This document shows, in pieces, positions 1-62,620 of a stretch of DNA of 64,000 nucleotides. How positions within the stretch are numbered: position 1 is the stretch's first letter; each line of letters opens with the position of its first letter. A program made the position numbers and the translations under genes. The notes below the pieces were generated by a model. That model had not been told where the DNA came from. It did no database searches and saw nothing but the letters and a program-made list of their open reading frames with translations. This DNA is from a virus (lineage: Duplodnaviria; Heunggongvirae; Uroviricota; Caudoviricetes): positions 1-64,000 of the IMG/VR virus record IMGVR_UViG_3300037467_003075; one strand, 5' to 3'.

Positions 1-1443
1 GGCCTTGATAAAGGTATATTCTTCGCCAAAGGCATCCATAATTCAGATGAATTTGATCTTTTTAATTCCACAGAACATACTGATAGCTTTGTTCATCCAT
101 GGATGGTAACAGGTGCAATGGGTGGCGGCAAAACAACACTAATCAATAATATGTGTCTGTCTAGGTCAATGGATGGTCATGGAGTTATAATATTGGACAC
201 TCAAGGCGACCAATCGAGAGAATTTTTGGCACAGCTCCCACAGTCAGAATGGCACAGGGTGGTATGGCTCAACTTTGGCGATTACGACTACCCTGTTCCC
301 GTTGATATGTTGGAAACTGTTCCAGTTGCAAATCCGCGCCATCAAAAATTCATGATGCAGTTCGCAAAGAATGAATTAGTTGAGCTATTTAAGCGAATGT
401 TTGGTCAAAACTTCGGCCCCCAGACTGAATATATTATTAGACACATCATCACGGCTACAATGACGAGTGGGCAAAGTTCATTTCTGGAAATGTTTCGCAT
501 GCTTGTTGACGATGAGTTCCGCGAAGAAATTACAAATAGAATTAAATTCAAGGCACCATTTAGCTGGTCATTCTGGCGCAACTTCCAGGACAATTTTGCC
601 TTGCCACAGAAAATGCGTATGATGATGCCAAGTATTAATAAAATTGGTTCATTTGTTGAGAATCCAATCGTTATGAATATTACAAGCCAAGGGCTAGGAA
701 GCCAGAATTACTCTTTCCGTAAATTAATGGATGAAGGAAAGATTGTTGTTGTGACAATACCAAAGGGCAGATTAATTGGCACATGGCAACTAATTGGCAG
801 GCTGATACTTGGAAAGATATGGACAGCTGCGCTCTCGCGGGAGAACGAACCTATTCCAAAACGTAGGCCAGCTTTCCTTTTTATTGATGAGGCAAAAGAC
901 TTGATCGAGGGCAGTGACAACCTTGATATCATGCTGTCACAGGCACGCAAGTTCCGCCTTGGTTTAGTGTTCGGATTCCAGTACTTAGATCAAATCAAGG
1001 CTGCCAATAAACGTGTGTACGATGCGCTGATAGGAAATAAGCCGAATATTGTAGCTCTTAAGGTCGGTGGAAAAGATGCGGAGGCATACGAGGAGCTATT
1101 CAAGGGCTATTACAATCGTCACGAAATGGACTTTCCTGACCTTCATGGCATTGCCAAGCTTAATATTTCAGGAACGTACTCGTCACCGTTTACAATTCGC
1201 ATTCCCTATAACTTTTTTACCCGCGACAATTCACCAAGACAGCCAAATGAGGACGCACTAGATACCTTGCAGGAACAGAGTAGAAAATTATACGCTAGAC
1301 CAATTGAGGAAGTTGAGAAAGCAGTTGAGTCACGGTATGGAGATATTATTAAACAGCTTGAGCTGGTCGAAGGATTCGAGGATGGGAAAGAAGAAATTGA
1401 GCTATCTGAGGACATGATTGAACAGTTAAGAAAAATGGAGTAG
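1..1443 (+). CDS. P-loop NTPase, conjugative coupling-protein-like (TraD/TraG/VirD4 or DUF87/HerA-like AAA); 5' end lies outside the window
   Basis: Reading frame is open from nt 1. Walker A GAMGGGKTT; Walker B-like FLFIDEAKD; the next gene is replication-relaxation family. Confidence 0.5.
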   Translation, partial: GLDKGIFFAKGIHNSDEFDLFNSTEHTDSFVHPWMVTGAMGGGKTTLINNMCLSRSMDGHGVIILDTQGDQSREFLAQLPQSEWHRVVWLNFGDYDYPVPVDMLETVPVANPRHQKFMMQFAKNELVELFKRMFGQNFGPQTEYIIRHIITATMTSGQSSFLEMFRMLVDDEFREEITNRIKFKAPFSWSFWRNFQDNFALPQKMRMMMPSINKIGSFVENPIVMNITSQGLGSQNYSFRKLMDEGKIVVVTIPKGRLIGTWQLIGRLILGKIWTAALSRENEPIPKRRPAFLFIDEAKDLIEGSDNLDIMLSQARKFRLGLVFGFQYLDQIKAANKRVYDALIGNKPNIVALKVGGKDAEAYEELFKGYYNRHEMDFPDLHGIAKLNISGTYSSPFTIRIPYNFFTRDNSPRQPNEDALDTLQEQSRKLYARPIEEVEKAVESRYGDIIKQLELVEGFEDGKEEIELSEDMIEQLRKME

Positions 1444-1477
1444 TGGGTTCTATTTATTTCGTCAAGGAGGATGAAAT

Positions 1478-2458
1478 ATGTTTGTTCCAGAAAGAAGAAC
1501 AATAAATAAATACAAAAGAGAGCCTATTCGCATCAATGACGAGCATATAAAAAAAGTACTTTCTTGGATTACAGAAAGAGATGTTCGTATTCTAAAGTTA
1601 TTGCTGACCCATCCATTTTTAAAAACAAGTCAGATAGAAATGATGGTTTTTTCTGACTTAAAACCATCATCATGGAGAACAAAATGCAATGAACGGATGA
1701 GGAGACTATATCATGCGCACTGTGTTGATAGATGGTACACTCCTGTTGGCAGTGGTGAAGGTTCGTCAGAGGCGCATTATGTGTTGGATAATCTTGGAAC
1801 AAAGATACTCGCAATAAAACTTGGCTATAAAGAGGAAATAAACAAGTTCCGTAAAAGGGTATATCTGCCACAGACCTACAAACATAGCCTTAAAATATTT
1901 GACTTCAAAGCCATGCTTCATGTACTAAACAGACAAATTGGAGTTATCGATGGGCATACTGTAGGGGAAATTTTGAAGTGGAGAACAGAGCATGAGGCAA
2001 CAATTAACTATCGGAGCGATGGCAAGAAGGGCCAAGTGATTCCTGATGCGTTTTGCATCTATAAATATACTCCAACCTTAGTAAAGCCTTTCTTCTTAGA
2101 GTGTGATAATGCAACGATGGACTTGAACCAGTTGAAAAGTAAAATACGGCGCTATTTAGACTGCTACGAAAGCGGCGACTGGCGAGAAACAGATTGGGCA
2201 AGGCTCATAAAAACGTTTCCACCAGTTATTATCGTCATGCACTCGTTTGATGATGTTCGTAAATTAACCGCTTTCATTAGAACAAATAAATCAAATATTA
2301 GATTCTTACTCACAACATATAGTGATTTAATTACAAGAAATTTCAAATCATATCCAAACAACCACGGAAAAGTCAGAGAAGTGCTTAGCGATATAAAAAT
2401 AAACTTATTGGAACCGATATATGTAAATCCATACGAGAAAGGGAGAGCTGTGTTGTAG
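1478..2458 (+). CDS. replication-relaxation family protein (plasmid/ICE-type winged-helix N-terminus)
   Basis: N-terminal ITERDVRILKLLLTHPFLKTSQIEMMVF resembles the Replic_Relax signature. RBS AAGGAGG precedes the ATG. Sits downstream of the coupling-ATPase-like gene. Confidence 0.45.
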   Translation: MFVPERRTINKYKREPIRINDEHIKKVLSWITERDVRILKLLLTHPFLKTSQIEMMVFSDLKPSSWRTKCNERMRRLYHAHCVDRWYTPVGSGEGSSEAHYVLDNLGTKILAIKLGYKEEINKFRKRVYLPQTYKHSLKIFDFKAMLHVLNRQIGVIDGHTVGEILKWRTEHEATINYRSDGKKGQVIPDAFCIYKYTPTLVKPFFLECDNATMDLNQLKSKIRRYLDCYESGDWRETDWARLIKTFPPVIIVMHSFDDVRKLTAFIRTNKSNIRFLLTTYSDLITRNFKSYPNNHGKVREVLSDIKINLLEPIYVNPYEKGRAVL

Positions 2459-9428: not shown

Positions 9429-9758
9429 ACTACTATTCCTCCTTAATGTCCACCATTTGCATTACTGTGCAATTCGCATAGCCCAACATGAAAGCCTTGG
9501 CAAACAATTGAACCTGTCATTCCGTTGCAGATAAAAGCGTCTAACTTTAGACAGATAGCTTTTTCGCGATTCGTTACTCGGCATTATTCTTCACTGTCCT
9601 TTTCAATTGATAGTTCTACGCTAAGTTTGCCTTTAGCAAACACACCTTCATCCCAAGACCAAGTTGCTTTATTTACTGTATACCCTTTATTCTTCATATA
9701 TTTGTCTAACTGCCTCAAAAGTTTCTAATTGACTTAATTCGCATTTTAGATTCATTTT

Positions 9759-15861: not shown

Positions 15862-16161
15862 TTATTCGCCGCTAAAATTCTCAAGGTATTTAATGTCATC
15901 ACTATTTAAAACCAATTCGGAACAATCTTCGCGTCTATAAATATATAATCCTCTACCACTAGGGCCGCGACAACAGCCTCTAGCACACAAAGCAACCCAT
16001 TCTTCTTCTGTACGAAACCACTTCCAAGCGTGTGCGTAGAATCTGCCATTAAGTAACGCCCTAGCGATATTGCAAGCATCAATAAATTCGATTCCGTATT
16101 CTTTACGTAAGTGTTTAGCAAGTTTATTAATACGTTTCTTCTTGAGTTTCTTCTTGGTCAC
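15862..16161 (-). CDS. hypothetical basic protein
   Basis: 99 aa, Lys-rich N-terminus. Confidence 0.35.
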   Translation of the reverse strand: MTKKKLKKKRINKLAKHLRKEYGIEFIDACNIARALLNGRFYAHAWKWFRTEEEWVALCARGCCRGPSGRGLYIYRREDCSELVLNSDDIKYLENFSGE

Positions 16162-29201: not shown

Positions 29202-30368
29202 TTAGACTGTAGGAAACAGCGCAGTGAGAGCTTGTTGGTGACATTTTGCGCAGTAGTAAGTGTTGTCGTTTGCTGCACCTTCATTGTAGGCAGCGTGCAC
29301 TTCATGCTCTTGCAACGCATCTTCACATTCGGCACAGAATACAATTTCGTTCTCTTCCTCGCCGTCTTCTTCATCGACGCCAGCGGCCTGTGCACTGGTA
29401 TAGATAATGACCTCGCCAGTGATAGGATCAAGTTCTCCTTCGATAATCATACCAATGGAATCGGATGCGGAGACACGAGTACTGTTTGTGCTATTCGTAC
29501 CCCTGGTATTCCAGTATTCATTATTAGTGTATGTTACCTTCGACACACTGGATGCAATGAGAATGCTCACAGGCTCACTAATCATGGTTTCGTAGGAATC
29601 GGCTGTCGAATCCAACATAACATAATTATTTGCTTTCAGCTCGTATTCCTTGAGCGTGAAAGTCTCACAGATATTAAACCGTTTGCCTACGCGGCGCAGC
29701 TTATTGAAGCTGTCAAGAATGAATTTCTTTTCAGAATTGAAGAACAGCACGCCAGCCTCTTCCCAATAGACAAAATCCATTGGACGATCTTGTTTCACAA
29801 TGTGAACAAGGTGAGGCTGTGCCTTGTGTGCAAAAGCCAAGGCGAACATGCCGCGCAGCTTTGTTTCCTCAAGCGCATTACGTAGTCCTTGATACGTAAT
29901 CTTGTCTTGATTATAATAATTGATTAACTGATAGATGATCTCGCTGTCAACTTCGGCAATACGTTCGAATCTTCCTTCGTATTGCTTAAATAGTTCATCG
30001 TCATTGGAGATTGTGCCGTTATGAACGCCGACAACGTTGCCGATGTCAAACGGATGGTTATTGTTATTATTGTCGGGCTTGCCTTTGGTGTAATACCGTG
30101 TATGAGAGATAATAGAGGCAGTATTATCATCGATATTCCTGATAATCGAATCATATTGCTCATCGAATGTCGTGAACATTTTTGCCTCCACAGCAGCCTT
30201 GTGCATCTCATAAGAAGAACCATCGCGAAGAAATGATACCAGGCCAGTAGCATGGTGCCCACGATCTTGCGTCTCGACCAAAATCTCATCGAACAAGTAA
30301 CGAATCGCGGCCCACATATTCTCCGTCCGCTCTTTTTTCAACAAAACAATCCCCGAAATACCACACAT
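29202..30368 (-). CDS. class-II glutamine amidotransferase (GAT-II) family protein, paralog 2, with C-terminal zinc ribbon
   Basis: Starts MCGISG; C-terminal CAECE...CAKCH; near-consensus promoter upstream at 30385-30420. Confidence 0.65.
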   Translation of the reverse strand: MCGISGIVLLKKERTENMWAAIRYLFDEILVETQDRGHHATGLVSFLRDGSSYEMHKAAVEAKMFTTFDEQYDSIIRNIDDNTASIISHTRYYTKGKPDNNNNNHPFDIGNVVGVHNGTISNDDELFKQYEGRFERIAEVDSEIIYQLINYYNQDKITYQGLRNALEETKLRGMFALAFAHKAQPHLVHIVKQDRPMDFVYWEEAGVLFFNSEKKFILDSFNKLRRVGKRFNICETFTLKEYELKANNYVMLDSTADSYETMISEPVSILIASSVSKVTYTNNEYWNTRGTNSTNSTRVSASDSIGMIIEGELDPITGEVIIYTSAQAAGVDEEDGEEENEIVFCAECEDALQEHEVHAAYNEGAANDNTYYCAKCHQQALTALFPTV

Positions 30369-30384
30369 TACAACATCATTCCCT

Positions 30385-30425
30385 TCGAAATTTTTAATCT
30401 GTTTTTATATTATAAATGCATTATA
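30385..30425 (-). promoter_or_regulatory. sigma-A-type promoter upstream of GAT-II paralog 2
   Basis: rc: cTTGACAcctggttataatgcattTATAATATaaaaac. Confidence 0.45.
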
Positions 30426-30502
30426 ACCAGGTGTCAAGTAGAAATATTGATTATTTTGGAGCAGCAACCAATATTAGATCACTGCTCCGTTATAATGCAA
30501 TA

Positions 30503-31606
30503 TTATACTGCAGCGGAGGAGCGGATAACCTGAATAGCTTGCAATTCATTTGCAGTAAACAGATCGTAATTGTCAAAAACGTCATTCTGCTGTTGAAGTA
30601 AAACTGCACACTCAAGCTTGAGCGTTTCGACAATAATCTCTTTGTTGGTATCGAATGTGCAGTTAGCGTCTAATAATTGACCGACAATAACCAGTATTTG
30701 TTCCATGGTCGCATGCTTTGCAAAATTAACCATATGTGTGACCAACTCGACATATGCCTCCACCATGTCAGCACTTTTCTGTGGGTAGAAATAACGGAAC
30801 TCGACCGTCTTTCTATATGTGGCATAAGCATCAAAATTAAGTCCCATATATCTGGTGTCTGAAAATTTTACGCTACCGATATTATACAAGTCCAGTCTTC
30901 CAATCGCACGAAGAACCTGGCTCCTATATTCGGAAAGTGGGCGGCAGTACTGACTCGTGAAACGATACTCTTCTGTTACCGAATAAATAAACGGTTCAAT
31001 TCCAACCGTCAATGCAAGCAACTTCTGAAAGTCGTGTACAGTATAATCTTCTACTTCAACATGAATATGTAGGCCAGCTGTATTGTCAACATGCCAGCCG
31101 TTGCCGTCAAGCCAGTCATACATTTTGTAAATCGGAAGTGTATTGGAAAGCGGTTCACATTTGGCCTCAATGCCGTAATCGTCCGCCTCAACGTACCCAG
31201 AGCCATCACACTGATAACATTCAATTGCATTTGTACCTTCGCAACGTGGACATTTCACATAAGAGCGACCATCGCAATGATCGCAGTTTATTTCACATTC
31301 ACCATCGCATTCGCAGCAAACGTTGCCGTCCTCATCTTTCCCGCTTCCGCTGCACTCGTCACAAGTTTCATATCCATTGTTGCAGTGTTCGCAGTGAATT
31401 TCCCCATCGCTGTCGCAGTCTGGGCATTCTACATGTCCACTACCTTGACAGCTGCCGCATTCGGTATCGCCATTGCGTAGGCTGCCATCGTCTTCAATAT
31501 CCCATTCGCACCCATCTATTACGCGTCCATAAACGCGGCTATTGACGTATCCCTCAAGCTCTACCCCGAATCGACGGGGAGTATTAATTCCATGGTTTTT
31601 GCACAT
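30503..31606 (-). CDS. GS-like amidoligase, paralog 4, with inserted Cys-rich (DnaJ-like CxxCxGxG) zinc-finger module
   Basis: FGVELEGY ... DDGSL ... about 110 aa of CxxC repeats (CGSCQGSGHVECPDCDSDG...) ... GLHIHVEV ... YMGLNFDAYATYRKTVEFRYF. Confidence 0.6.
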   Translation of the reverse strand: MCKNHGINTPRRFGVELEGYVNSRVYGRVIDGCEWDIEDDGSLRNGDTECGSCQGSGHVECPDCDSDGEIHCEHCNNGYETCDECSGSGKDEDGNVCCECDGECEINCDHCDGRSYVKCPRCEGTNAIECYQCDGSGYVEADDYGIEAKCEPLSNTLPIYKMYDWLDGNGWHVDNTAGLHIHVEVEDYTVHDFQKLLALTVGIEPFIYSVTEEYRFTSQYCRPLSEYRSQVLRAIGRLDLYNIGSVKFSDTRYMGLNFDAYATYRKTVEFRYFYPQKSADMVEAYVELVTHMVNFAKHATMEQILVIVGQLLDANCTFDTNKEIIVETLKLECAVLLQQQNDVFDNYDLFTANELQAIQVIRSSAAV

Positions 31607-57546: not shown

Positions 57547-57597
57547 AAAGAGCATGGTTGAAAATTATATTCAACTACGCTCTTTATTTTTTACGTG
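57547..57597 (+). terminator. rho-independent terminator after the SGNH hydrolase gene
   Basis: Imperfect 13-bp stem (GAGCATGGTTGAA ... TTCAACTACGCTC) followed by TTTATTTTTT. Confidence 0.45.
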
Positions 57598-57669
57598 GCG
57601 AAGGTTAGACGAATCGAACGCCTATCGACAGGGTTGGAATCTGCCGTGTTACCATTACACTAAACCCCC
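57596..57669 (-). tRNA. tRNA-Trp (anticodon CCA)
   Basis: Cloverleaf read by hand: acceptor GGGGGTT/AACCTTC, D stem GTGT/ACAC, anticodon loop TTCCAAC, T arm AGGCG-TTCGATT-CGTCT, encoded CCA. One A-C mismatch in the anticodon stem. Confidence 0.5.
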
Positions 57670-57677
57670 CAATAATA

Positions 57678-57750
57678 TACGCCCACAAGGTGAATTGAAC
57701 ACCTAATTACGACTTAGAAGGTCGTTGTTATATCCTTTTAACTATGCAGG
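57678..57750 (-). tRNA. tRNA-like fragment (Arg-TCT-like anticodon arm and T arm; no pairing acceptor)
   Basis: ACGAC-CTTCTAA-GTCGT and AGGTG-TTCAATT-CACCT are present, but the 5' acceptor strand is missing. Confidence 0.25.
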
Positions 57751-57823
57751 CAAACGTGCGGAGAGCTAGGTAACTCTCCATATTAAATGTATGAGAAGGT
57801 AGCATATGAAATGCAATCACACG

Positions 57824-57898
57824 TGGTGCAGGGCAGGGTAGTCGAAACCCTATCATCTGAGTGGAAGTCAGATATCATATCCATTAGACCAGCCCCAC
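57824..57898 (-). tRNA. tRNA-Gly (anticodon TCC)
   Basis: Acceptor GTGGGGC/GCCCTGC, anticodon arm TCTGA-CTTCCAC-TCAGA, T arm AGGGT-TTCGACT-ACCCT, CCA. Confidence 0.55.
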
Positions 57899-58273
57899 AT
57901 ATTTAATTACTGAATCATAAACCATTCATTTTTATGGTTATCTTTGTTGTTTGCATATATTTCGTTTGCTGTATCAAGCATGTAGCCATCTGTTATAGCT
58001 TTCAGTATTCCCTTTGTTTCTTTGCACATATTAATATCGTCCCAAGTAAGGCCAATAAGCTTATTCATTGCTTCTTTCTGCCCTTCTGTTCCATATATAT
58101 TAATAATATGCAAACATTTCTGTAAATCATGAACCATAACAACTACCTCCATATATAATTTATATACGTATCTATGGGCGGAGCTTCTTTTTATAGTGGT
58201 TAGCTTTTTAAACTATGCCGCCCTATAAAACCACTGTGTGCACTATGTTCCCACTAAGGAGTGCGTTATACGT

Positions 58274-58347
58274 TGGTGTGGACAGTGGGGATTGAACCCA
58301 CACCCTAACGTTGGCAACGTCAAGTTCTTCCATTAAACTATGTCCAC
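58274..58347 (-). tRNA. tRNA-Gly (anticodon GCC)
   Basis: Acceptor GTGGACA/TGTCCAC, anticodon loop TTGCCAA, T arm GTGGG-TTCAATC-CCCAC, CCA. Confidence 0.6.
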
Positions 58348-58534
58348 ATAATACGGGTGGCTCCCTCCGAACCTTAATACGACCACCCCATGCAACCTAC
58401 ATAGGAGAATATTTTCGGTTGCACACCCTGGCTGTCTTTTGCTTATTTCGCGGCTCCTATAATGACTAGATAAGCAGTACCAGCTTAATGTCCGTTTTTA
58501 TTAAGGGATTAAACGGAGCCGAAATCAACCGATG

Positions 58535-58600
58535 CAAGGGGACGGATTCGAACCATCTAGTCGCGCACTAAGCCCTCCGTTTGGACTTCCCTTACGTGTG
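58535..58600 (-). tRNA. tRNA-like element, atypical (about 63 nt, no clear D arm)
   Basis: T arm GATGG-TTCGAAT-CCGTC and acceptor GTAAGGG/CCCTTGC are present, but the region is too short for a canonical cloverleaf. An adjacent 50-nt hairpin lies at 58598-58650. Confidence 0.25.
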
Positions 58601-58665
58601 CTTGTTTTTCTAAGTCGGCATCTCGCCTCTGAGAGGATAAAACAAGCAAAACCCAGTGATTAACG

Positions 58666-58761
58666 TGGTACAGGAGGAGGGACTCGAACCCACAGCCGCG
58701 CACTAATCTGGTGCATACGAGAGGTATAAGCTCTCCGCTCTGCCAATTGAGCTACTCCTGC
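58666..58761 (-). tRNA. long (96 nt) tRNA-like gene with about 25-nt variable region, anticodon TAT
   Basis: Acceptor GCAGGAG/CTCCTGT, D arm GCTC-AATTGGCA-GAGC, anticodon arm GAGAG-CTTATAC-CTCTC, T arm GTGGG-TTCGAGT-CCCTC, CCA. Confidence 0.4.
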
Positions 58762-58765
58762 ATAT

Positions 58766-58841
58766 TGGATGCCGAATGAGGGAATCGAACCCCCAATAGA
58801 AGATTACAAATCTACTGTTATTCCATTTAACTAATTCGGCA
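58766..58841 (-). tRNA. tRNA-Thr (anticodon TGT)
   Basis: Acceptor TGCCGAA/TTCGGCA, anticodon loop TTTGTAA (one stem mismatch), T arm GGGGG-TTCGATT-CCCTC, CCA. Confidence 0.5.
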
Positions 58842-58912
58842 TATATCAATCGGCATTTATCGGTTGCCTAATCACCGACCCTTTTCCATATATGAAGGAT
58901 GAAACTACGTTA

Positions 58913-58987
58913 TGGTAGGGAATAAGGGAATCGAACCCTTGCCCCAAGCTCCCAAAGCCCGTGTTCTAACCATTATACTAATTCCCT
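58913..58987 (-). tRNA. tRNA-Pro (anticodon TGG)
   Basis: Acceptor AGGGAAT/ATTCCCT, anticodon arm CGGGC-TTTGGGA-GCTTG, T arm AAGGG-TTCGATT-CCCTT, CCA. Confidence 0.5.
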
Positions 58988-59156
58988 ATAAATAATATAG
59001 CTGTCACTCTTGCCAACATCGTATCAGTTGGTGATAAGTTAGCAGTATAGCCTAGATGTTCAGCACTACTAACGCTTTACCCTTTTCCAATGTGACAGGA
59101 TACAGGACGCAACATCCTCCTGAATCGTCGGTAAATCCCTTTAGCTATATTACGTT

Positions 59157-59234
59157 TGGTCGGGAAGGTGAGAGTCAAACTCACAGTTGTACAAGGTTTG
59201 AGCTTGTTGCGTCTGCCTATTCCGCCACAACCCG
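59157..59234 (-). tRNA. tRNA-like, short variable arm, anticodon CAA (Leu codon UUG); two T-T mismatches in acceptor stem
   Basis: Anticodon arm ACAAG-CTCAAAC-CTTGT (perfect stem), T arm GTGAG-TTTGACT-CTCAC, CCA. Confidence 0.35.
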
Positions 59235-59238
59235 ATAA

Positions 59239-59324
59239 TACCGCCAAGGAGACTCGAACTCCTACGCCCAATTAAGAGCAGCAGATTTTAAATCTGCTTT
59301 GTCTACCGATTCCATCATGGCGGC
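59239..59324 (-). tRNA. tRNA-Leu (anticodon TAA), type II
   Basis: Anticodon arm GCAGA-TTTAAAA-TCTGC, long variable arm, T arm GGAG-TTCGAGT-CTCC, acceptor GCCGCCA/TGGCGGT. Confidence 0.55.
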
Positions 59325-59504
59325 AAAGAATACAGAATACACTTGCTTGCGCTTCCCGCGCTTAAAATTTGTGTTACGTGAGAGCATCCATGCCAACTAT
59401 GCACTTAGGTACGCCTACCACATAACTTCGTCAAGTTATCATGCATGTTGGACACTTACTGGACACTCATTGTTCCGCATTACACGGTTGTAATCAAGAC
59501 GCTC

Positions 59505-59580
59505 AAATTAGTTGGGACTCGAACCCAAAAGGACTTTTTGGAAGAAAGTTTGCTAGCCATTAGCACTGTATTTGTTTTGC
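59505..59580 (-). tRNA. tRNA-like, degenerate (Gly-TCC-like anticodon arm; acceptor pairs poorly)
   Basis: ACTTT-CTTCCAA-AAAGT and TTGGG-TTCGAGT-CCCAA are present; only 4 of 7 acceptor pairs form. Confidence 0.25.
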
Positions 59581-59647
59581 TGTAAGCGTCTTACGTTCTT
59601 ATATTATTATTATATTACATTTCCTTGATTTTGTCAAGGGTAAAACG

Positions 59648-59738
59648 TGGCGGGTGGCGAGGGATTTGAACCCCCACAGGCTATCAACCCTTAAGCGCTT
59701 TTCAAGAGCGCCCCCTTACCAGATTCGGACAGCCACCC
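59648..59738 (-). tRNA. tRNA-Ser (anticodon TGA), type II
   Basis: Acceptor GGGTGGC/GCCACCC, anticodon arm GCGCT-CTTGAAA-AGCGC, long variable arm, T loop TTCAAAT, CCA. Confidence 0.6.
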
Positions 59739-59741
59739 ATT

Positions 59742-59820
59742 TGGAGAGCAAGATCGGACTCGAACCGACGAATAATAGCGATTTTGCAGATCGCCGCGTT
59801 TGCCTCTTCGCCACTTGCTC
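59742..59820 (-). tRNA. tRNA-Cys (anticodon GCA)
   Basis: Acceptor GAGCAAG/CTTGCTC, anticodon arm GCGAT-CTGCAAA-ATCGC, T arm GTCGG-TTCGAGT-CCGAT, CCA. Confidence 0.55.
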
Positions 59821-59882
59821 CATAATAATTCAAGGCACATTTTAATTAGCTTCTCCCCCATAGTAAAAGGTTTTTAAATAAT

Positions 59883-59950
59883 GGCGGGGGAGCTTGGAAT
59901 TGAACCAAGTATCTTCTGTTTACAATACAGACGCTTCACCTATTAGGTAA
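59883..59950 (-). tRNA. tRNA-like 3' fragment (Thr-TGT-like anticodon arm, T arm and CCA; no 5' acceptor strand)
   Basis: TCTGT-ATTGTAA-ACAGA; CTTGG-TTCAATT-CCAAG; CTCCCCC-G-CCA with no matching GGGGGAG upstream. Confidence 0.25.
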
Positions 59951-59974
59951 GTTTTGCTGTGAGTGCCTTACGTT

Positions 59975-60014
59975 AGGAGAGGACTTAGCAAACCTCTCCA
60001 AGCTAAGTTTTTTC
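59975..60014 (+). terminator. terminator-like hairpin plus T6 inside the tRNA array (plus orientation)
   Basis: GGAGAGG-acttagcaaa-CCTCTCC ... AGCTAAGTTTTTT. Confidence 0.3.
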
Positions 60015-60082
60015 GGCGGACAACAAGGGAAAACAGCTATTAGTTTTATTACCTACAAAACCTTGTTATAGTATCCGCAACG

Positions 60083-60158
60083 TGGTACCCTCGGTCAGAG
60101 TCGAACTGACACTGTATGCGTTCTAAGCGCATCTTCTCTGCCATTGGAATACGAGGGC
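60083..60158 (-). tRNA. tRNA, standard 76-nt type-I scaffold but anticodon TAG (Leu codon CUA)
   Basis: Acceptor GCCCTCG/CGAGGGT, anticodon arm ATGCG-CTTAGAA-CGCAT, variable CAGT, T arm GTCAG-TTCGACT-CTGAC, CCA. Confidence 0.45.
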
Positions 60159-60159
60159 A

Positions 60160-60245
60160 TGGTACCAGTTGATGGAGTCGAACCACCCGAGCCGTTAGAC
60201 AACAGATTTACAGTCTGTCCCGCTTCCTCTACGGTATAAACTGGC
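60160..60245 (-). tRNA. tRNA-Tyr (anticodon GTA), type II
   Basis: Acceptor GCCAGTT/AACTGGT, anticodon arm ACAGA-CTGTAAA-TCTGT, long variable arm, CCA; 1 nt from the previous tRNA. Confidence 0.55.
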
Positions 60246-60351
60246 ATGTTATTAAACTAGGCGCGATAGTAACTTTGTTACTCATTTACAGTATACTAAT
60301 ATCAAATTTAGGTTTGTGTGTATTGTGTTGCTGTGTGCGCCTAACGTGGTA

Positions 60352-60425
60352 TGGACAGTGACAGATTCGAACTGCCAACGCTGAGTGCTTCAAACTCACG
60401 CTCTACCAATTGGAGCTAACTGTTC
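60352..60425 (-). tRNA. tRNA-Phe (anticodon GAA)
   Basis: GAACAGT-TA-GCTC-CAATTGGTA-GAGC, anticodon arm TGAGT-TTGAAGC-ACTCA, T arm GGCAG-TTCGAAT-CTGTC. Confidence 0.55.
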
Positions 60426-60599
60426 ATATTAATTTCATCTTCTTCATTATCTTCGTAATCTTTTGTGAACCCGAAGAAGCATTCATTTCGACTTTCTAGC
60501 CACTGAATAAAATCGTTTAGCCATTCATCCATTGTCTTTTCTGTATTAACAGCACCATTAATTGTTACCCATTTTTCCATGATTTTTTATCTCCCTTAC
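60426..60599 (-). CDS. small acidic protein; stop codon overlaps tRNA-Phe 5' end
   Basis: 57 aa (MEKWVTING...); RBS AGGGAGATAAAAAATC; the TAG stop falls within the GAACAGTTAGCTC tRNA start. Confidence 0.25.
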
Positions 60600-60600
60600 G

Positions 60601-60692
60601 TGGCGGACAGAATGGGATTCGAACCCATGCACGATTATTAGTCGCCTATTCCCTTAGCAGAGGAACCTCTTGAACCACTTGAGTATCTATCC
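60601..60692 (-). tRNA. tRNA-Ser (anticodon GCT), type II
   Basis: Acceptor GGATAGA/TCTGTCC, anticodon loop CTGCTAA, long variable arm, T arm ATGGG-TTCGAAT-CCCAT, CCA. Confidence 0.55.
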
Positions 60693-60836
60693 ATGATATT
60701 GTTTTTTAGCATAAAACAACCAAGAGTCATTTAACATTCTGATTTGTTCAATATCTTTCCTTTGAAAAGCTCTTGTTAGTTGATTTTTTTAACCATTGAG
60801 GCATTTTAATCACCTACGTTTTTTATTTAGGTTTTA

Positions 60837-60909
60837 TGGGGCGCACAGGAGTTGAACCTGCCTAGTACAGATTAAAAGTCTGTTGCATCTGCCGCTTTGC
60901 TAGCGCCCC
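60837..60909 (-). tRNA. tRNA-Lys (anticodon TTT)
   Basis: Acceptor GGGGCGC/GCGCCCC, anticodon arm ACAGA-CTTTTAA-TCTGT, T arm GCAGG-TTCAACT-CCTGT. Confidence 0.55.
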
Positions 60910-61250
60910 GTATTTTCAAATGCACAAGTTGGACATTTTTTAATGTAGCCAATATTGTGTTTAGTACAAACATATCCATTTCCTAGTTTCTTATCGCTTG
61001 TCTTTCGTTTCATTGTAGGCACTCCTTTTTGTTTTGCTGTCTTGCATGTTTTTTTAATCTTTTACTCATAACATAATTCTTTTGCAGATGCTTTGGGTGT
61101 TTACTTGACATGTCTCCACATAAACAACCTTTTTTACTGCATTTAACTCTGTCTTTTCTTTTTATTCCGTAGGGTTTCATTTGTTTTCCCTCCGTTGTTG
61201 TTTATATTATGATTATAATACATATACTTCTTTTTGTCAAGGAATAAATA

Positions 61251-61634
61251 TCAATTTATTTCAGAACTTTCTTCGACCCAACGACCATTTTCATCCTTTA
61301 CTTCAACCTTGATGTTTTTGGATTCCATTGATCTTTCTACTTGTTTTTCAATTGACTCTAGACCTTGTTTCTCCATCATAATTTCCGCTGTTTTACGCTT
61401 GTGCCAGTTCTGAAACTCTTTAGTTGCAACACAGCGCCTAAACGCCTCTGTGCGGTTTCTAGACTGCTCCCTGTGTTCTACGCTTTGTCCTACTGCTCCT
61501 GATTCAAGGTGAGTGAAACGAACGCCAGAGCTTGTCTTATTGACCTTTTGACCACCATTTCCAGGTGCGCGGAAAGTATCGATGCGAAAATCGTTTCTTG
61601 TTACTGAAAACAACAATTCTCTTCCCATCGCCAC
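61251..61634 (-). CDS. ArfB/ICT1-like peptidyl-tRNA hydrolase (class-I release-factor GGQ domain)
   Basis: GNGGQKVNKTSSGVRFTH parallels ArfB GAGGQHVNKTSTAIHLRF; basic C-terminal tail. Confidence 0.6.
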   Translation of the reverse strand: MAMGRELLFSVTRNDFRIDTFRAPGNGGQKVNKTSSGVRFTHLESGAVGQSVEHREQSRNRTEAFRRCVATKEFQNWHKRKTAEIMMEKQGLESIEKQVERSMESKNIKVEVKDENGRWVEESSEIN

Positions 61635-61718
61635 TACTCCTTAATTATTGTTTATGCGGTTTTGGCGAATCAGGTCGCCCGCTTATTTCCCTCTTTAAAC
61701 CAACCGCAAAGGAAACGT

Positions 61719-61795
61719 GGTTGCTACGCTACTGGAATTGAACCAGATTAACCCTAGCTTATGAAACTAGGTCGGATACTTACCCGCCGCCAGCT
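61719..61795 (-). tRNA. tRNA-like with CAT anticodon arm; acceptor stem does not pair (possible pseudo-tRNA)
   Basis: CTAGT-TTCATAA-GCTAG, T arm CTGG-TTCAATT-CCAG; no complementary acceptor strands. Confidence 0.3.
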
Positions 61796-61802
61796 ATAAT
61801 TT

Positions 61803-61877
61803 TGGTGGCTCTGGCAAGAATTGAACTTGCGACATACCGCTTATGAAACGGTTGTTCTCCCACTGAACTACAAAGCC
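61803..61877 (-). tRNA. tRNA-Met (anticodon CAT)
   Basis: Acceptor GGCTTTG/CAGAGCC, D arm TAGTTCAGTGGGAGAAC, anticodon arm ACCGT-TTCATAA-GCGGT, T arm GCAAG-TTCAATT-CTTGC, CCA. Confidence 0.6.
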
Positions 61878-62213
61878 ATTATTTTGATTTTCTACTTAAA
61901 ATATAATACTCAACTAACCAAAACGGAAGCAAGATGGCTCCAACAATAAACATAAGTATGACAAATAGTCCACTTTTAAATCTTTTGTCTTCTTCACTGT
62001 ATTCCCAAGCTTTGCCGAAAAAGTACCCGATAATTTTTCCTGTCATTATAGACCATCCTTTAAATTTTATCTAGCTTTTCCTTGAATTTTTCAACTCTTC
62101 TCGCGCCAGTTAAAATCCTTCTTTCTTCTACGCATGAAGCACAATTGCATATTTGCCTTTCAACTTTACGCTTTGGTTTGGGATAGATTAAATTTCTTAG
62201 CCATTCCATAAGA

Positions 62214-62435
62214 TTACTCCATCTCAAATTGCTTTAATGCTCTTAGGTAAGCATTGTTATAACAACCTTCAAACATTCTGTCTAATGCTTCCTTGTTGTT
62301 AGATAAGTCTTTTCTAATATGGCATTTAGCATATGGATAAACAACCTGATAATAACTAATTACCCTAATATCCCCAATTATCTCTTCTATTTTCTCAAGT
62401 GAAGAGCAAAACTCCTCAAATGATAGCTTATTCAT
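62214..62435 (-). CDS. hypothetical protein (trimmed; the longer ORF would overlap two tRNAs)
   Basis: ATG after GGAGGAAGG at 62435; the upstream extension would cover tRNA-Asp and tRNA-Ile. Confidence 0.35.
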   Translation of the reverse strand: MNKLSFEEFCSSLEKIEEIIGDIRVISYYQVVYPYAKCHIRKDLSNNKEALDRMFEGCYNNAYLRALKQFEME

Positions 62436-62464
62436 TAGTCCTTCCTCCACTTTAAAGATAGTTT

Positions 62465-62539
62465 TGGCGGCCCCAAGGAGAATTGAACTCCTGTCTGACG
62501 GCTGACAACCGACTGTAATATCCACTATACGATGGAGCC
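62465..62539 (-). tRNA. tRNA-Asp (anticodon GTC)
   Basis: Acceptor GGCTCCA/TGGGGCC, anticodon loop TTGTCAG (one T-T in stem), T arm AGGAG-TTCAATT-CTCCT, CCA. Confidence 0.5.
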
Positions 62540-62544
62540 ATATA

Positions 62545-62620
62545 TGGTAGGAGCGGCAAGAATTGAACTTGCATTGGGCGATTATCAGTCGCCTATTCTT
62601 CCATTGAATTACGCTCCAAT
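62545..62620 (-). tRNA. tRNA-Ile (anticodon GAT)
   Basis: D arm ATTC-AATGGAA-GAAT, anticodon arm GGCGA-CTGATAA-TCGCC, T arm GCAAG-TTCAATT-CTTGC, CCA; the 1-72 pair is mismatched. Confidence 0.55.

What the first reader, a model, noticed from the sequence alone, without database searches (positions are those of the whole stretch)
57596..62620. 5-kb tRNA array with about 16 canonical and several degenerate or atypical tRNA-like genes, interleaved with tiny ORFs
Hand-folded cloverleaves give Trp-CCA, Gly-TCC, Gly-GCC, Thr-TGT, Pro-TGG, Leu-TAA, Ser-TGA, Cys-GCA, Tyr-GTA, Phe-GAA, Ser-GCT, Lys-TTT, Met-CAT, Asp-GTC and Ile-GAT, all on the minus strand and most with encoded CCA. Between them sit tRNA-like elements that do not fold canonically. 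One (58535-58600) is about 63 nt with no D arm. One (59883-59950) is a 3' fragment with no 5' acceptor strand. One (61719-61795) is a CAT anticodon-arm copy with an unpaired acceptor. One (59505-59580) has a poor acceptor. One (57678-57750) is an Arg-TCT-like fragment. Such degenerate copies might be pseudogenes, recombination relics, or decoys for tRNA-targeting host nucleases. Two small ORFs (60426-60599 and about 60910-61020) place their TAG stop codons exactly inside the 5' ends of tRNA-Phe and tRNA-Lys.
Basis: seen in the sequence. Interest (0 to 1): 0.6.

Follow-up and report, generated by a model that had tools for sequence, protein, structure and literature searches.

The report
Phage tRNA array hiding Y-RNA-like cassettes

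Summary
The array is real. ARAGORN and Rfam agree on 19 minus-strand tRNA genes at 57596-62618, not about 16. The "Arg-TCT fragment" is a normal tRNA. Ile-TAT, Leu-CAA and Leu-TAG were missed.

Four other elements carry a T arm and are not called at default settings. Two of them (59496-59592 and 59832-59969), plus a third element without a tRNA-like part (60258-60343), share one architecture:
- a 7-bp closing stem,
- the 5' motif NN-ACAGCAA,
- a variable insert, often tRNA-like,
- an invariant G after the stem.

I found 49 distinct such cassettes, all on the gene or tRNA strand. They lie next to a DUF2828/DUF7788 gene, or in the tRNA array beside it, in phages of Bacillus, Paenibacillus, Listeria, Enterococcus, Staphylococcus, Mycobacterium, E. 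coli, Campylobacter, Sinorhizobium and Synechococcus.

The window's own phage very probably encodes this protein just outside the window, preceded by four cassettes. Its predicted fold matches Ro60/Rsr over the full length.

Best reading: a new variant of the Ro60-Y RNA module. RNA binding is inferred, not shown.

Element 61718-61795 is a conserved atypical CAU tRNA. Element 58534-58595 is unresolved. The TAG stops inside tRNA-Phe and tRNA-Lys are simply tRNA positions U8-A9-G10.

The parts
57596..62618 (-). tRNA array of 19 canonical tRNA genes, in transcription order: Ile-GAT, Asp-GTC, Met-CAT, Lys-TTT, Ser-GCT, Phe-GAA, Tyr-GTA, Leu-TAG, Cys-GCA, Ser-TGA, Leu-TAA, Leu-CAA, Pro-TGG, Thr-TGT, Ile-TAT, Gly-GCC, Gly-TCC, Arg-TCT, Trp-CCA.
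   Evidence: ARAGORN. Rfam RF00005 scores of 32.5-68.5 bits, all at or above the gathering score of 29.
59495..59592 (-).
- P1 5' strand AAGACGC 59592-59586
- motif ACAGCAA 59583-59577
- D-like arm 59565-59551
- anticodon-like arm 59549-59533 (loop CTTCCAA)
- T arm 59528-59512
- P1 3' strand GCGTCTT 59502-59496
- invariant G 59495
The tRNA-like arms are in normal order, with P1 taking the place of the acceptor stem.
   Evidence: Read from the sequence. Model R1, built only from other phages, scores it 33.7 bits, E=2.4e-4 over the whole window. Orthologues occur in L015, L036 and L038, and 6 of 19 pairs change compensatorily. ARAGORN calls it only at a relaxed threshold.
59831..59969 (-).
- P1 5' strand AAGGCAC 59969-59963
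- motif ACAGCAA 59960-59954
- hairpin 59950-59936
- anticodon-like hairpin 59931-59915 (loop ATTGTAA)
- T arm 59909-59893
- acceptor 3' strand CTCCCCC 59892-59886, then GCCA
- 23-nt loop remainder after GCCA (26 nt between the strands)
- acceptor 5' strand GGGGGAG 59859-59853
- P1 3' strand GTGCCTT 59838-59832
- invariant G 59831
   Evidence: The minimum-free-energy fold gives exactly this structure, z = -3.04, with 0 of 200 shuffles as stable. Rfam tRNA scores 26.9 bits over model positions 8-63. The permuted-tmRNA model aligns T arm, acceptor 3' strand, CCA, spacer and acceptor 5' strand at 20.8 bits. R1 matches only the 5' part, E=1.2, because the insert is long.
60257..60343 (-). P1 is TAGGCGC 60343-60337 paired with GCGCCTA 60264-60258. 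The motif ACAGCAA is at 60334-60328 and the invariant G at 60257. The insert has no tRNA-like arm.
   Evidence: Repeat family D10. Model R1 scores it 35.6 bits, E=1e-4, the best hit in the window.
59609..59637 (-). Sigma-70-type promoter, TTGACA-17-TATAAT (12 of 12 matches). It ends about 17 nt upstream of cassette b.
   Evidence: Promoter scan and repeat D5. A promoter followed directly by the first cassette also occurs in L033, L034 (Tsamsa) and L029.
61718..61795 (-). Element d, an atypical CAU tRNA-like gene. It has a normal anticodon arm (loop TTCATAA), T arm and CCA end, a reduced D arm and an interrupted acceptor helix. It lies upstream of the RF-1-domain gene.
   Evidence: Not called by ARAGORN even at relaxed thresholds. 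The Rfam tRNA-Sec model scores 17.5 bits, E=9.9. It is 79% identical to L038 13691-13769, which ARAGORN calls tRNA-Met. The D stem and anticodon stem differ by compensatory changes in the A3 alignment.
58534..58595 (-). Element a, an unassigned miniature tRNA-like element. It has an acceptor-like stem GTAAGGG/CCCTTGC, a 5-bp hairpin, a 4-bp stem with loop TGCGCGA and a T arm. It has no CCA and no ACAGCAA motif.
   Evidence: Fold with z = -0.93, not better than shuffles. No orthologue in the related loci. Not matched by R1. ARAGORN at a relaxed threshold offers a different register, 58582-58510.
61251..61628 (-). RF-1-domain (GGQ) protein gene of 125 aa inside the array. This is context, not part of the cassettes.
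   Evidence: Pfam PF00472, E=5.6e-20. PHROG 3122.
60416..60580 (-). 54-aa ORF whose TAG stop (60418-60416) is positions 8-10 of tRNA-Phe.
   Evidence: ORF list and sequence. Called as a gene in the identical Logan contig.
60900..61013 (-). 37-aa Cys-rich ORF whose TAG stop (60902-60900) is positions 8-10 of tRNA-Lys.
   Evidence: The same ORF/tRNA-Lys overlap exists in relative L036 (ORF 9540-9665, tRNA 9656-9730).

Best explanation
The region is the tRNA island of a roughly 163-kb phage or phage-plasmid of a Bacillota host; the closest relative lies in a Paenibacillus assembly.

It holds 19 working tRNA genes co-transcribed with small ORFs from sigma-70-type promoters. Embedded in it are three copies of a conserved RNA cassette. 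Each cassette is a 7-bp closing stem (P1), followed on the 5' side by NN-ACAGCAA and a G-poor stretch. Next comes a variable insert, then the 3' strand of P1 and an invariant G.

The insert can be a plain hairpin (cassette e). It can be a tRNA-like body in normal arm order with P1 replacing the acceptor stem (cassette b). Or it can be a tRNA-like body whose acceptor stem is closed by a loop (cassette c).

Shown here: this cassette family is strand-specific and covaries. It is genetically linked, across bacterial phyla, to a DUF2828/DUF7788 gene whose predicted fold is that of Ro60/Rsr, a helical-repeat ring plus a vWA domain with a DxSxS MIDAS motif.

Inferred: the cassettes are Y-RNA-like partners of this Ro-like protein. 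P1 plus the ACAGCAA loop would be the protein-binding site, playing the role of the stem and CGAA loop in known Y RNAs. The tRNA-like module would mimic tRNA to engage tRNA-binding or RNA-decay enzymes, as YrlA and Yrn1 do. The likely purpose is RNA quality control, repair or counter-defence during infection.
For: Family definition
- Three copies in the window against 0.25 expected by chance.
- 49 distinct cassettes across the loci.
- 58 of 99 ACAGCAA sites on the gene strand have a perfect 7-bp closure. Displaced or random controls give 8-10%.
- 99 sites lie on the gene strand against 21 on the opposite strand.
- The base after P1 is G in 49 of 49, a feature not used for detection.
- All 7 P1 pairs show double changes. 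Covariation score is 0.78 against 0.23 in shuffles and 0.06-0.14 in slid controls.

Independent model
- R1 was built without any window sequence. It recovers cassettes e and b as the only significant hits in 64 kb.
- It gives 43 hits in 345 kb of loci, all in the cassette-bearing loci (those holding the Ro-like gene or recovered with the motif pattern). It gives none in about 90 kb of unrelated phage loci, none in the spurious pattern loci, and none in the 35-kb tRNA region of T5.

Linkage to the Ro-like gene
- Cassettes lie within about 3 kb of the DUF2828 gene, or in the adjoining tRNA array, in L015, L016, L029-31, L033, Tsamsa, Halena, L036, L038, wV8, LMTA-57, CP81, S-CoN_Ph3, phiM7, B3 and EFDG1.
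Four cassettes and a promoter lie directly upstream of it.

Protein fold
- AlphaFold model with pLDDT 83.
- The top 8 PDB matches are all Ro60/Rsr over the full length, E down to 5e-7, TM about 0.55.
- D305, S307 and S309 are invariant.
- Mycobacteriophage homologues are annotated 'Ro-like RNA binding protein'.

Resemblance to Y RNAs
- Ten cassettes have the arm order T arm, closed acceptor, D arm that defines YrlA.
- Rfam YrlA aligns full-length to two of them, at 39.8 bits (E=1.3e-7) and 35.5 bits.

Literature
- PMC4201824: Y RNAs are encoded within 4 kb of Ro60 on the same strand.
- PMC12135203: a phage Ro60 binds two Yrl RNAs encoded upstream of its gene.
- PMC11482910: Bas63 gp130 is Ro60-like and counters the Ppl defence, and the authors guess that some neighbouring 'tRNAs' are Y RNAs.
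Against: - No expression, processing or binding data exist for any cassette.
- The conserved motif is ACAGCAA, not the GNCGAA/CGAA motif tied to Ro60 binding.
- The protein has no sequence-level match to TROVE or to any solved Ro60.
- No window cassette reaches any Rfam threshold for YrlA.
- Cassette c lacks the D arm that follows the closed acceptor in YrlA.
- The Ro-like gene is outside the window. Its distance from the window cassettes is unknown, and no overlap exists between L033 and the window.
- Sequences used for the P1 covariation count were chosen for having a closed P1, so that count is not independent of the selection.
- Vibrio phage XZ1 has the gene but no convincing cassette.
Confidence: 0.6

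Rival explanations
1. The cassettes are processing or punctuation signals of the polycistronic tRNA transcript. The leader-trailer stem and ACAGCAA loop would be a substrate for a host or phage ribonuclease that sets the ends of tRNAs and small RNAs. Alternatively they are operator sites through which the neighbouring protein regulates its own mRNA. Either way they would not be a stable RNP partner.
For: - Some cassettes enclose a complete tRNA: L029 5937 encloses tRNA-Pro at 63.6 bits, and L036 6708 encloses tRNA-Gln.
- Cassettes often sit directly between a promoter and the Ro-like gene.
- In this phage group an ACGT follows many CCA ends and precedes many cassettes.
Against: - Most tRNAs in these arrays have no such flanks.
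- Many cassettes hold only a short hairpin with nothing to release.
- The tight link to one protein family across phyla, and the tRNA-like inserts with YrlA arm order, fit a dedicated RNP better.
- Autoregulation and Y-RNA function are not mutually exclusive.
Confidence: 0.2
2. The atypical elements are decaying tRNA pseudogenes or recombination relics with no function.
For: - Element a (58534-58595) has no orthologue and folds no better than shuffled sequence.
- The anticodon loops of b-type orthologues are not conserved.
- Annotated phage arrays often list pseudo-tRNAs.
Against: - Cassettes b, c and e carry a motif and a stem conserved from Actinobacteria phages to Proteobacteria phages, with compensatory changes.
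- D-like, anticodon-like and T stems of b-type orthologues covary.
- Element d keeps its stems through compensatory changes relative to L038.
Confidence: 0.08
3. The tRNA-like elements are decoys that soak up host anticodon nucleases or other tRNA-targeting defence toxins, independently of the Ro-like protein.
For: - tRNA mimicry is evident: D/T-loop signatures such as AATGG and TTCGA are kept.
- The island also carries replacement tRNAs, an RF-1-domain rescue-type factor and, in relatives, a tmRNA. This fits a response to attack on translation.
Against: - A decoy for an anticodon nuclease should keep the targeted anticodon loop, yet the loops differ among orthologues (TCC, GCA, TTC and others).
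- Many cassettes, including e, have no tRNA-like part at all.
- This reading explains neither the ACAGCAA-P1 module nor the linkage to DUF2828.
Confidence: 0.1
4. The inverted repeats act at the DNA level, as miniature mobile elements or as recombination or homing-endonuclease sites that shuffle tRNA genes.
For: - 7-bp terminal inverted repeats flank variable cargo.
- HNH endonuclease genes lie in and next to such arrays.
- Array order differs between relatives.
Against: - The motif is strongly strand-specific and always co-oriented with transcription (99 against 21 sites).
- The repeat sequence changes freely as long as pairing is kept. That is the signature of an RNA helix, not of a protein-recognised DNA site.
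- No target-site duplications were seen.
Confidence: 0.02

Closest known systems
Bacterial Y RNAs YrlA (Rfam RF02553) and D. radiodurans Yrn1, bound by Ro60/Rsr (Chen et al. 2014, PMC4201824)
   Same: - Small RNAs encoded beside a Ro60-fold protein gene on the same strand, often in several copies.
- A 5'-3' closing stem followed by a conserved 5' loop motif.
- A tRNA-like module in T arm, closed acceptor, D arm order (as in YrlA) or in normal order with an anticodon-like arm (as in Yrn1).
- The Rfam YrlA model aligns full-length to two cassettes at sub-threshold scores.
   Different: - The conserved motif is ACAGCAA, not GNCGAA(N)G.
- The partner protein is DUF2828/DUF7788, with no TROVE match at sequence level.
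- No cassette reaches the YrlA gathering score of 69 bits.
- Cassettes are scattered through a tRNA array.
- Inserts range from 16 nt to a complete tRNA.
- Binding is untested.
Thermus phage phiLo Ro60 with Yrl1 and Yrl2 (NAR 2025, PMC12135203)
   Same: A phage-encoded Ro60-fold protein with two or more stem-loop-stem RNAs encoded directly upstream of its gene. Binding and a ternary complex with host PNPase were shown experimentally.
   Different: - The phiLo RNAs were identified by the CGAA motif.
- A profile of the DUF2828 family (alignment A2) finds no Ro60 chain of any kind among PDB sequences.
- No tRNA array is described there.
Stable tRNA-like RNAs of the phage T5 tRNA region (RNA1, RNA2, RNA3, RNAI, RNAIII, RNAIV, RNA2H, RNAX in record NC_005859)
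   Same: A phage tRNA island in which tRNA genes are interleaved with small ORFs that overlap tRNAs, and with stable tRNA-like RNAs of unknown function (annotation).
   Different: The cassette model finds nothing in the 35-kb T5 region at E up to 1. The T5 RNAs have no reported ACAGCAA-P1 module or Ro-like partner.
Bas63 (Felixounavirus) gp130, a Ro60-like counter-defence protein (PhageMaP preprint, PMC11482910)
   Same: The related Felixounavirus wV8 carries a homologue of the window phage's Ro-like protein directly upstream of its tRNA array, the position the preprint reports for gp130. That homologue is followed by four cassettes in wV8. The preprint's authors guessed that some neighbouring 'tRNA genes' are Y RNAs.
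   Different: The preprint defines no RNA motif or candidate. Here the candidates are specified. The Ppl phenotype has not been linked to any RNA.
Circularly permuted tRNA genes and two-piece (permuted) tmRNA genes
   Same: In cassette c the gene order is T arm, acceptor 3' strand, CCA, spacer, acceptor 5' strand. The permuted-tmRNA model aligns to it.
   Different: - There is no coding piece or tag frame: tRNA-Cys starts 11 nt after P1.
- The score of 20.8 bits is below the threshold of 47.
- No D arm follows the 5' strand.
- The element carries the cassette hallmarks instead.

Membership tests
Canonical tRNA genes (Rfam RF00005) | Cloverleaf accepted by a tRNA finder, with a covariance-model score at or above the gathering score of 29 bits. 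| tested here: met
   19 genes pass. Elements a-d do not: c scores 26.9 bits as a partial match, b and a appear only at relaxed ARAGORN thresholds, and d is never called.
YrlA / bacterial Y RNA (RF02553) | Covariance-model score at or above the gathering score of 69 bits. | tested here: not met
   No YrlA hit covers any window cassette. Related cassettes reach 39.8 bits (Halena) and 35.5 bits (L038) in full-length alignments.
YrlA / bacterial Y RNA (RF02553) | Conserved GNCGAA(N0-1)G motif near the 5' end (PMC4201824). | tested here: not met
   All cassettes carry ACAGCAA at that place instead. It is invariant in the 25-sequence alignment and in all 49 cassettes, which were selected for it. 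The TCAGCAA variant in cyanophage B3 lies outside that set.
YrlA / bacterial Y RNA (RF02553) | Encoded within about 4 kb of a Ro60 orthologue on the same strand. | tested here: inconclusive
   Met in 15 or more other loci, and for four cassettes of the same phage in L033. For the three window cassettes the gene lies beyond the window end at an unknown distance. In relatives L036 and L038 the b-type cassette is about 4-6 kb downstream on the same strand.
YrlA / bacterial Y RNA (RF02553) | tRNA-like domain in the order T arm, closed acceptor stem-loop, D arm. | tested here: inconclusive
   Ten cassettes in other phages have it. Window cassette c has the T arm and closed acceptor but no D arm after it. 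Cassette b has normal tRNA order, as in Yrn1. Cassette e has no tRNA-like part.
YrlA / bacterial Y RNA (RF02553) | Physical binding to the Ro60-type protein. | not testable with these tools
   Needs RIP/CLIP or gel-shift assays.
Ro60 / Rsr (TROVE, PF05731) for the partner protein P0145 | Ring of helical repeats followed by a vWA domain with a MIDAS motif. | tested here: met
   The AF2 model (pLDDT 83, pTM 0.80) matches Ro60/Rsr chains as its top 8 PDB hits over about 560 aligned columns. D305, S307 and S309 are invariant.
Ro60 / Rsr (TROVE, PF05731) for the partner protein P0145 | Sequence-level match to the TROVE family or to a solved Ro60. | tested here: not met
   Pfam gives only DUF2828 and DUF7788. 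Neither phmmer nor a family profile finds any Ro60 in the PDB.
Permuted (two-piece) tmRNA (RF04321) | Acceptor piece followed by a coding piece with a tag reading frame, and a score of at least 47 bits. | tested here: not met
   20.8 bits covering model positions 36-95 only. tRNA-Cys starts at 59820, leaving no room for a coding piece.
New cassette family defined here (model R1) | 7-bp P1, NN-ACAGCAA, P1' followed by G, on the strand of the tRNAs or the Ro-like gene. | tested here: met
   Cassettes b, c and e meet all four features. R1 gives E=2.4e-4 for b and 1e-4 for e. Elements a and d do not meet them.

The most novel reading that the evidence does not exclude
P1-ACAGCAA cassettes are a previously undescribed and very widespread class of phage Y-like RNAs. 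They would be the specific ligands of the DUF2828 Ro60-fold protein, which is present in about 700 sequenced phages including Felix O1-, A511/P100-, Tsamsa-, EFDG1- and CP81-type phages. Their modular insert, which can be a hairpin, a tRNA mimic in either topology, or even a complete tRNA, would let the phage present tRNA-shaped cargo to the Ro ring or to host RNA-decay and repair enzymes as a counter-defence device. Many 'pseudo-tRNAs' annotated in phage arrays would then be these RNAs.
Probability: 0.45. Interest if true: 0.8.

Novelty: new variant of a known kind. Interest (0 to 1): 0.62.

Why it matters
Phage tRNA islands are usually read as codon-usage helpers plus junk pseudo-tRNAs. This analysis gives a concrete, testable identity to part of that "junk".

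The result is a defined RNA motif, with a covariance model, that tracks a Ro60-fold protein across phages of at least four bacterial phyla (Bacillota, Actinomycetota, Pseudomonadota incl. Campylobacter, Cyanobacteria).

A protein the PhageMaP preprint describes as Ro60-like, gp130 of the Felixounavirus Bas63, has a counter-defence phenotype against Ppl with no known RNA partner. The related Felixounavirus wV8 carries the DUF2828 homologue followed by four cassettes. The cassettes are therefore explicit candidates for pull-down, gel-shift, structural and deletion experiments.

They would also extend the Ro60-Y RNA paradigm to a second, sequence-unrelated recognition motif. Practically, they would improve annotation. 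Several cassettes are currently annotated as tiny hypothetical ORFs or sit in unannotated gaps next to pseudo-tRNAs.

Tried and rejected
- Close relatives by DNA: megablast found nothing, and blastn found only isolated tRNA matches.
- An exact 25-mer of element c in IMG/VR: no hit.
- Anchoring on the RF-1-domain protein: homologues at 41-68% identity mostly lie outside any tRNA array. Only L015 was useful.
- Element c as a permuted tmRNA or permuted tRNA gene: rejected. There is no coding piece, the score is sub-threshold, and no D arm follows the 5' strand.
- The spacer between Ile-TAT and Gly-GCC (which holds element a) as a degenerate tmRNA, since relative L036 has a tmRNA at that place: rejected. 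It is not alignable and its fold gives z = -0.8.
- Direct YrlA membership for the window cassettes: not met.
- Sequence-level link of DUF2828 to Ro60: none. Only the fold links them.
- Supplementary tables of Chen et al. 2014, to see which phage RNAs they listed: not held.
- RNAalifold on the three d-type sequences gave no cloverleaf because the alignment was poor. The compensatory changes were read from alignment A3 instead.
- A literature search found no description of the ACAGCAA cassettes or of DUF2828 function.

Full report
**1. The observation**

ARAGORN finds 19 tRNA genes, all on the minus strand, between 57596 and 62618. Rfam's tRNA model confirms all 19 above its gathering score when the region is scanned alone, and 17 in the whole-window scan.
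- The "Arg-TCT-like fragment" (57679-57752) is a canonical tRNA at 60.2 bits.
- Three tRNAs were missed: Ile-TAT 58666-58761, Leu-CAA 59157-59234 and Leu-TAG 60083-60158.
- Sixteen genes end in an encoded CCA.
- A T-loop scan of the whole window shows that, beyond the called tRNAs, exactly four more minus-strand elements in the array have a proper T arm.

**2. The stop codons**

The TAG of the 54-aa ORF (60418-60416) and of the 37-aa ORF (60902-60900) are positions 8-10 of tRNA-Phe and tRNA-Lys. U8, A9 and G10 are conserved tRNA nucleotides that spell a stop codon. Any ORF running into a tRNA in that frame ends there.

The ORF/tRNA-Lys overlap is conserved in relative L036. The overlap implies co-transcription. 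After RNase P cleavage the upstream mRNA would lack its stop codon. I note this only as a possible link to the RF-1-domain gene in the array.

**3. What the odd elements share**

A repeat search showed a 24-nt motif, AACGTAAGnCnCTnACAGCAAAAC, three times at about 375-nt spacing. It precedes elements b (59505-59580) and c (59883-59950) and occurs at a third place (60325-60348). Chance expectation is 0.25 copies.

A related contig, L015, holds an orthologue of b. In it the first seven bases of the motif (AAGGCGC) pair with GCGCCTT after the T arm. In the window the corresponding pair is AAGACGC with GCGTCTT, a compensatory change. The same closure exists for c (AAGGCAC with GTGCCTT) and for the third copy (TAGGCGC with GCGCCTA).

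The unit is therefore a closing stem P1, then NN-ACAGCAA, then an insert, then P1'.

In c, the "missing" 5' acceptor strand (GGGGGAG, 59859-59853) lies 26 nt after the 3' strand and closes the acceptor into a hairpin. The minimum-free-energy fold reproduces the whole architecture with z = -3.0. Rfam's permuted-tmRNA model aligns to the T-arm/CCA/spacer/5'-strand part.

**4. The family elsewhere**

A pattern scan of IMG/VR returned 17 loci, 11 of them with the closure.

Scanning all loci held gave these results:

| Measure | Result |
|---|---|
| ACAGCAA sites on the tRNA/gene strand | 99 |
| ACAGCAA sites on the opposite strand | 21 |
| Gene-strand sites with a perfect 7-bp closure | 58 of 99 |
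| Closure rate for displaced or random 7-mers | 8-10% |

- Forty-nine distinct cassettes have a G directly after P1' in 49 of 49 cases, and almost no G in the six bases after the motif. Neither feature was used for detection.
- In a MAFFT alignment of 25 short cassettes from 15 loci, every P1 pair shows double compensatory changes. There are 46 such cells. The covariation score is 0.78, against 0.23 for shuffles and at most 0.14 for slid registers. The caveat is that these sequences were chosen for having a closure.
- A covariance model built from that alignment, with no window sequence in it, finds cassettes e and b as the only significant hits in both strands of the 64-kb window (E=1e-4 and 2.4e-4). 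It finds the 5' part of c at E=1.2.
- The model gives 43 hits in 345 kb of loci. All are in cassette-bearing loci. None is in about 90 kb of unrelated phage loci or in the spurious pattern hits. None is in the 35-kb tRNA region of T5.
- Rfam 15 has no family for these RNAs.

**5. The linked gene**

In L015, three cassettes lie directly upstream of a 507-aa DUF2828/DUF7788 gene and one lies downstream. Homologues of that gene sit next to the cassettes in L016, L029, L030 and L031.

A homologue, P0145, is recorded on a JGI contig of 162,770 bp. That is the same length as the contig carrying the window's RF-1 protein, and both proteins occur in the same Logan sample. So the window's phage very probably encodes it. 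In that locus (L033) a consensus promoter and four cassettes precede the gene, and tRNA-His, Glu, Asn and Val follow it. L033 does not overlap the window. Synteny with L036 and L038 places it just beyond the window's right end.

tblastn finds the protein in 697 phage records. I sampled eleven genera:

| Phage | Host group | Cassettes found |
|---|---|---|
| Tsamsa | Bacillus | 3 |
| Halena | Mycobacterium | 3 |
| wV8 | E. coli | 4 |
| LMTA-57 | Listeria | 3 |
| CP81 | Campylobacter | 2 |
| S-CoN_Ph3 | Staphylococcus | 3 |
| phiM7 | Sinorhizobium | 2-3 |
| EFDG1 | Enterococcus | 2 |
| B3 | Synechococcus | 2, with TCAGCAA |
| L038 | Paenibacillus contig | 7 |
| XZ1 | Vibrio | none convincing |

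Ten of the eleven have cassettes within about 3 kb of the gene or in the adjoining tRNA array, on the same strand.

**6. What the protein is**

- An AlphaFold2 model of P0145 (pLDDT 83, pTM 0.80) has Ro60/Rsr structures as its eight best PDB matches over the full length. E goes down to 5e-7 and TM is about 0.55. Only isolated vWA domains follow.
- The family keeps an invariant D-x-S-x-S.
- There is no sequence-level match to TROVE or to any solved Ro60.
- Mycobacteriophage homologues are already annotated "Ro-like RNA binding protein".

**7. Comparison with what is known**

[quoted passage not shown] They have a 5'-3' stem with a conserved loop motif (GNCGAA), and in bacteria they carry a tRNA-like domain. 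YrlA has the order T arm, closed acceptor, D arm. Yrn1 has a different orientation with an anticodon-like arm (PMC4201824).

A Thermus phage Ro60 binds two Yrl RNAs encoded upstream of its gene and forms a complex with host PNPase (PMC12135203).

Ten cassettes in other phages have the YrlA arm order. The Rfam YrlA model aligns full-length to two of them, at 39.8 and 35.5 bits against a threshold of 69.

Window cassette b is Yrn1-like: normal arm order with P1 in place of the acceptor. Its orthologues in L015, L036 and L038 keep the D-like, anticodon-like and T stems with compensatory changes, while the "anticodon" varies. Cassette c has the T arm and closed acceptor only. Cassette e is a plain cassette.

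The motif (ACAGCAA) and the protein family differ from the described systems, so I file this as a new variant and not as a member of YrlA. The PhageMaP preprint (PMC11482910) reports that the Ro60-like gp130 of Bas63 counters the Ppl defence. It guesses that some adjacent "tRNAs" are Y RNAs but names no candidates.

**8. The remaining elements**

- Element d (61718-61795) is 79% identical to L038 13691-13769, which ARAGORN calls tRNA-Met. The D stem (CGG/CCG against GAG/CUC) and the anticodon stem changed compensatorily, and the CAU loop and the CCA end are kept. I read it as a maintained but atypical CAU tRNA with an interrupted acceptor helix. Whether it is charged is unknown.
- Element a (58534-58595) can be drawn as a miniature cloverleaf. 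It has no orthologue, no cassette hallmarks, and no fold better than shuffles. It remains unresolved and may be a relic.

**9. Mechanism and confidence**

Shown:
- a conserved, strand-specific, covarying RNA cassette,
- its genomic linkage to a Ro60-fold protein gene across phyla,
- tRNA mimicry in many inserts,
- promoters directly upstream of first cassettes.

Inferred:
- the cassettes are stable RNAs bound by the Ro-like protein through P1 and ACAGCAA,
- the tRNA-like modules recruit or gate tRNA-directed enzymes,
- the module serves RNA surveillance, repair or counter-defence.

I put 0.9 on family membership and linkage, and about 0.6 on the Y-RNA-like function.

Noticed in passing
window 61251-61628 (-); L036 11745-12064; L001 729-1118: A 125-aa RF-1-domain (GGQ) protein gene lies inside the tRNA array. 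Relatives carry a tmRNA gene in their arrays instead: L036 has tag GKQLQLVA*, and L001 has tag ADNFADDYALAIAA*. Together with ORF stop codons buried in tRNAs, this suggests the island also deals with stalled or non-stop ribosomes. That link is speculative.
   Followed up: partly
window 58666-58761 (-): tRNA-Ile(TAT) is 96 nt long with a 27-nt variable region, a class II shape, and A73. Its acceptor and T arm resemble the 83-nt 'tRNA-OTHER' of phage Tsamsa (L034 2558-2640), whereas the Ile-TAT genes of relatives L036 and L038 are normal class I. Its charging identity is open.
   Followed up: partly
window 59157-59234 and 60083-60158 (-); L036 10367-10443, 10816-10893, 10897-10973: The tRNAs with Leu anticodons CAA and TAG have short variable arms (76-78 nt) and so lack the class II long arm expected of bacterial tRNA-Leu. 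Leu-CAA also has two T-T mismatches in its acceptor stem. The short form recurs in relative L036.
   Followed up: no
window 57596-62618: ACGT occurs 0-4 nt after the CCA end of 10 tRNAs and of element d (11 in all), and directly before cassettes b, c and e. Its density is 3.8 per kb in the array against 1.4 per kb in the whole window. The same ACGT precedes cassettes in L015, L036 and L038. It may be a processing signal, but it is unexplained.
   Followed up: partly
window 60347-60428 (-): In tRNA-Phe the CCA lies two bases beyond the usual position (ACTGTCC-A-TA-CCA). The flanks ATGAACAGT and ACTGTCCAT could form a 9-bp acceptor helix with one mismatch.
   Followed up: no
window 58988-59156 (-): The 169-nt spacer between Leu-CAA and Pro is closed by a 9-bp stem (AATATAGCT with AGCTATATT) but has no ACAGCAA motif. 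In relative L038 the syntenic spacer holds a YrlA-like cassette (15954-16072). It may be a decayed or divergent cassette.
   Followed up: no
window 61640-61717 (-): The leader between element d and the RF-1-domain gene has nested long-range pairings: GCGGTT with AACCGC, and GGCGA with TCGCC. It has no Rfam match and its function is unknown.
   Followed up: no
window 59326-59494 (-): A 170-nt stretch between cassette b and tRNA-Leu(TAA) has no ORF call, no tRNA and no Rfam hit. It contains the hairpin GCGCGGGAAGCGC.
   Followed up: no
L033 3879-8649 (same phage, outside the window): Upstream of the Ro-like gene lie an Apyc1-type anti-Pycsar phosphodiesterase, a TRM5/TYW2-like methyltransferase (weak match), a radical-SAM protein and a DUF483 protein. 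These point to phage-encoded tRNA modification and counter-defence functions around the island.
   Followed up: no
L036 12424-12499; L019 8666-8740 and 8939-9013: Related arrays carry tRNAs with a CTA anticodon (reported by ARAGORN as 'Pyl'). These are putative amber suppressors. The window has none.
   Followed up: no
L040 6838-8049 (Listeria phage LMTA-57): An RtcB-type 'tRNA-splicing ligase' gene lies 1.3 kb downstream of the Ro-like gene. This recalls the rsr-yrlBA-rtcBA operon of Salmonella.
   Followed up: no
L043 4510-4857; L041 3867-4004: Several cassettes are currently annotated as tiny hypothetical proteins (S-CoN_Ph3 CDS0028/0029 and CP81 ORF140). These are probably mis-annotations.
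   Followed up: no
window 103-2458 and 29202-31606: Elsewhere in the window are a TrwB-like coupling-protein fragment and a Replic_Relax protein, three amidoligase-family proteins, class II glutamine amidotransferases, GGACT, a NADAR/DarT1-associated antitoxin-like protein, ClpP and thymidine kinase. The element may be a phage-plasmid.
   Followed up: no
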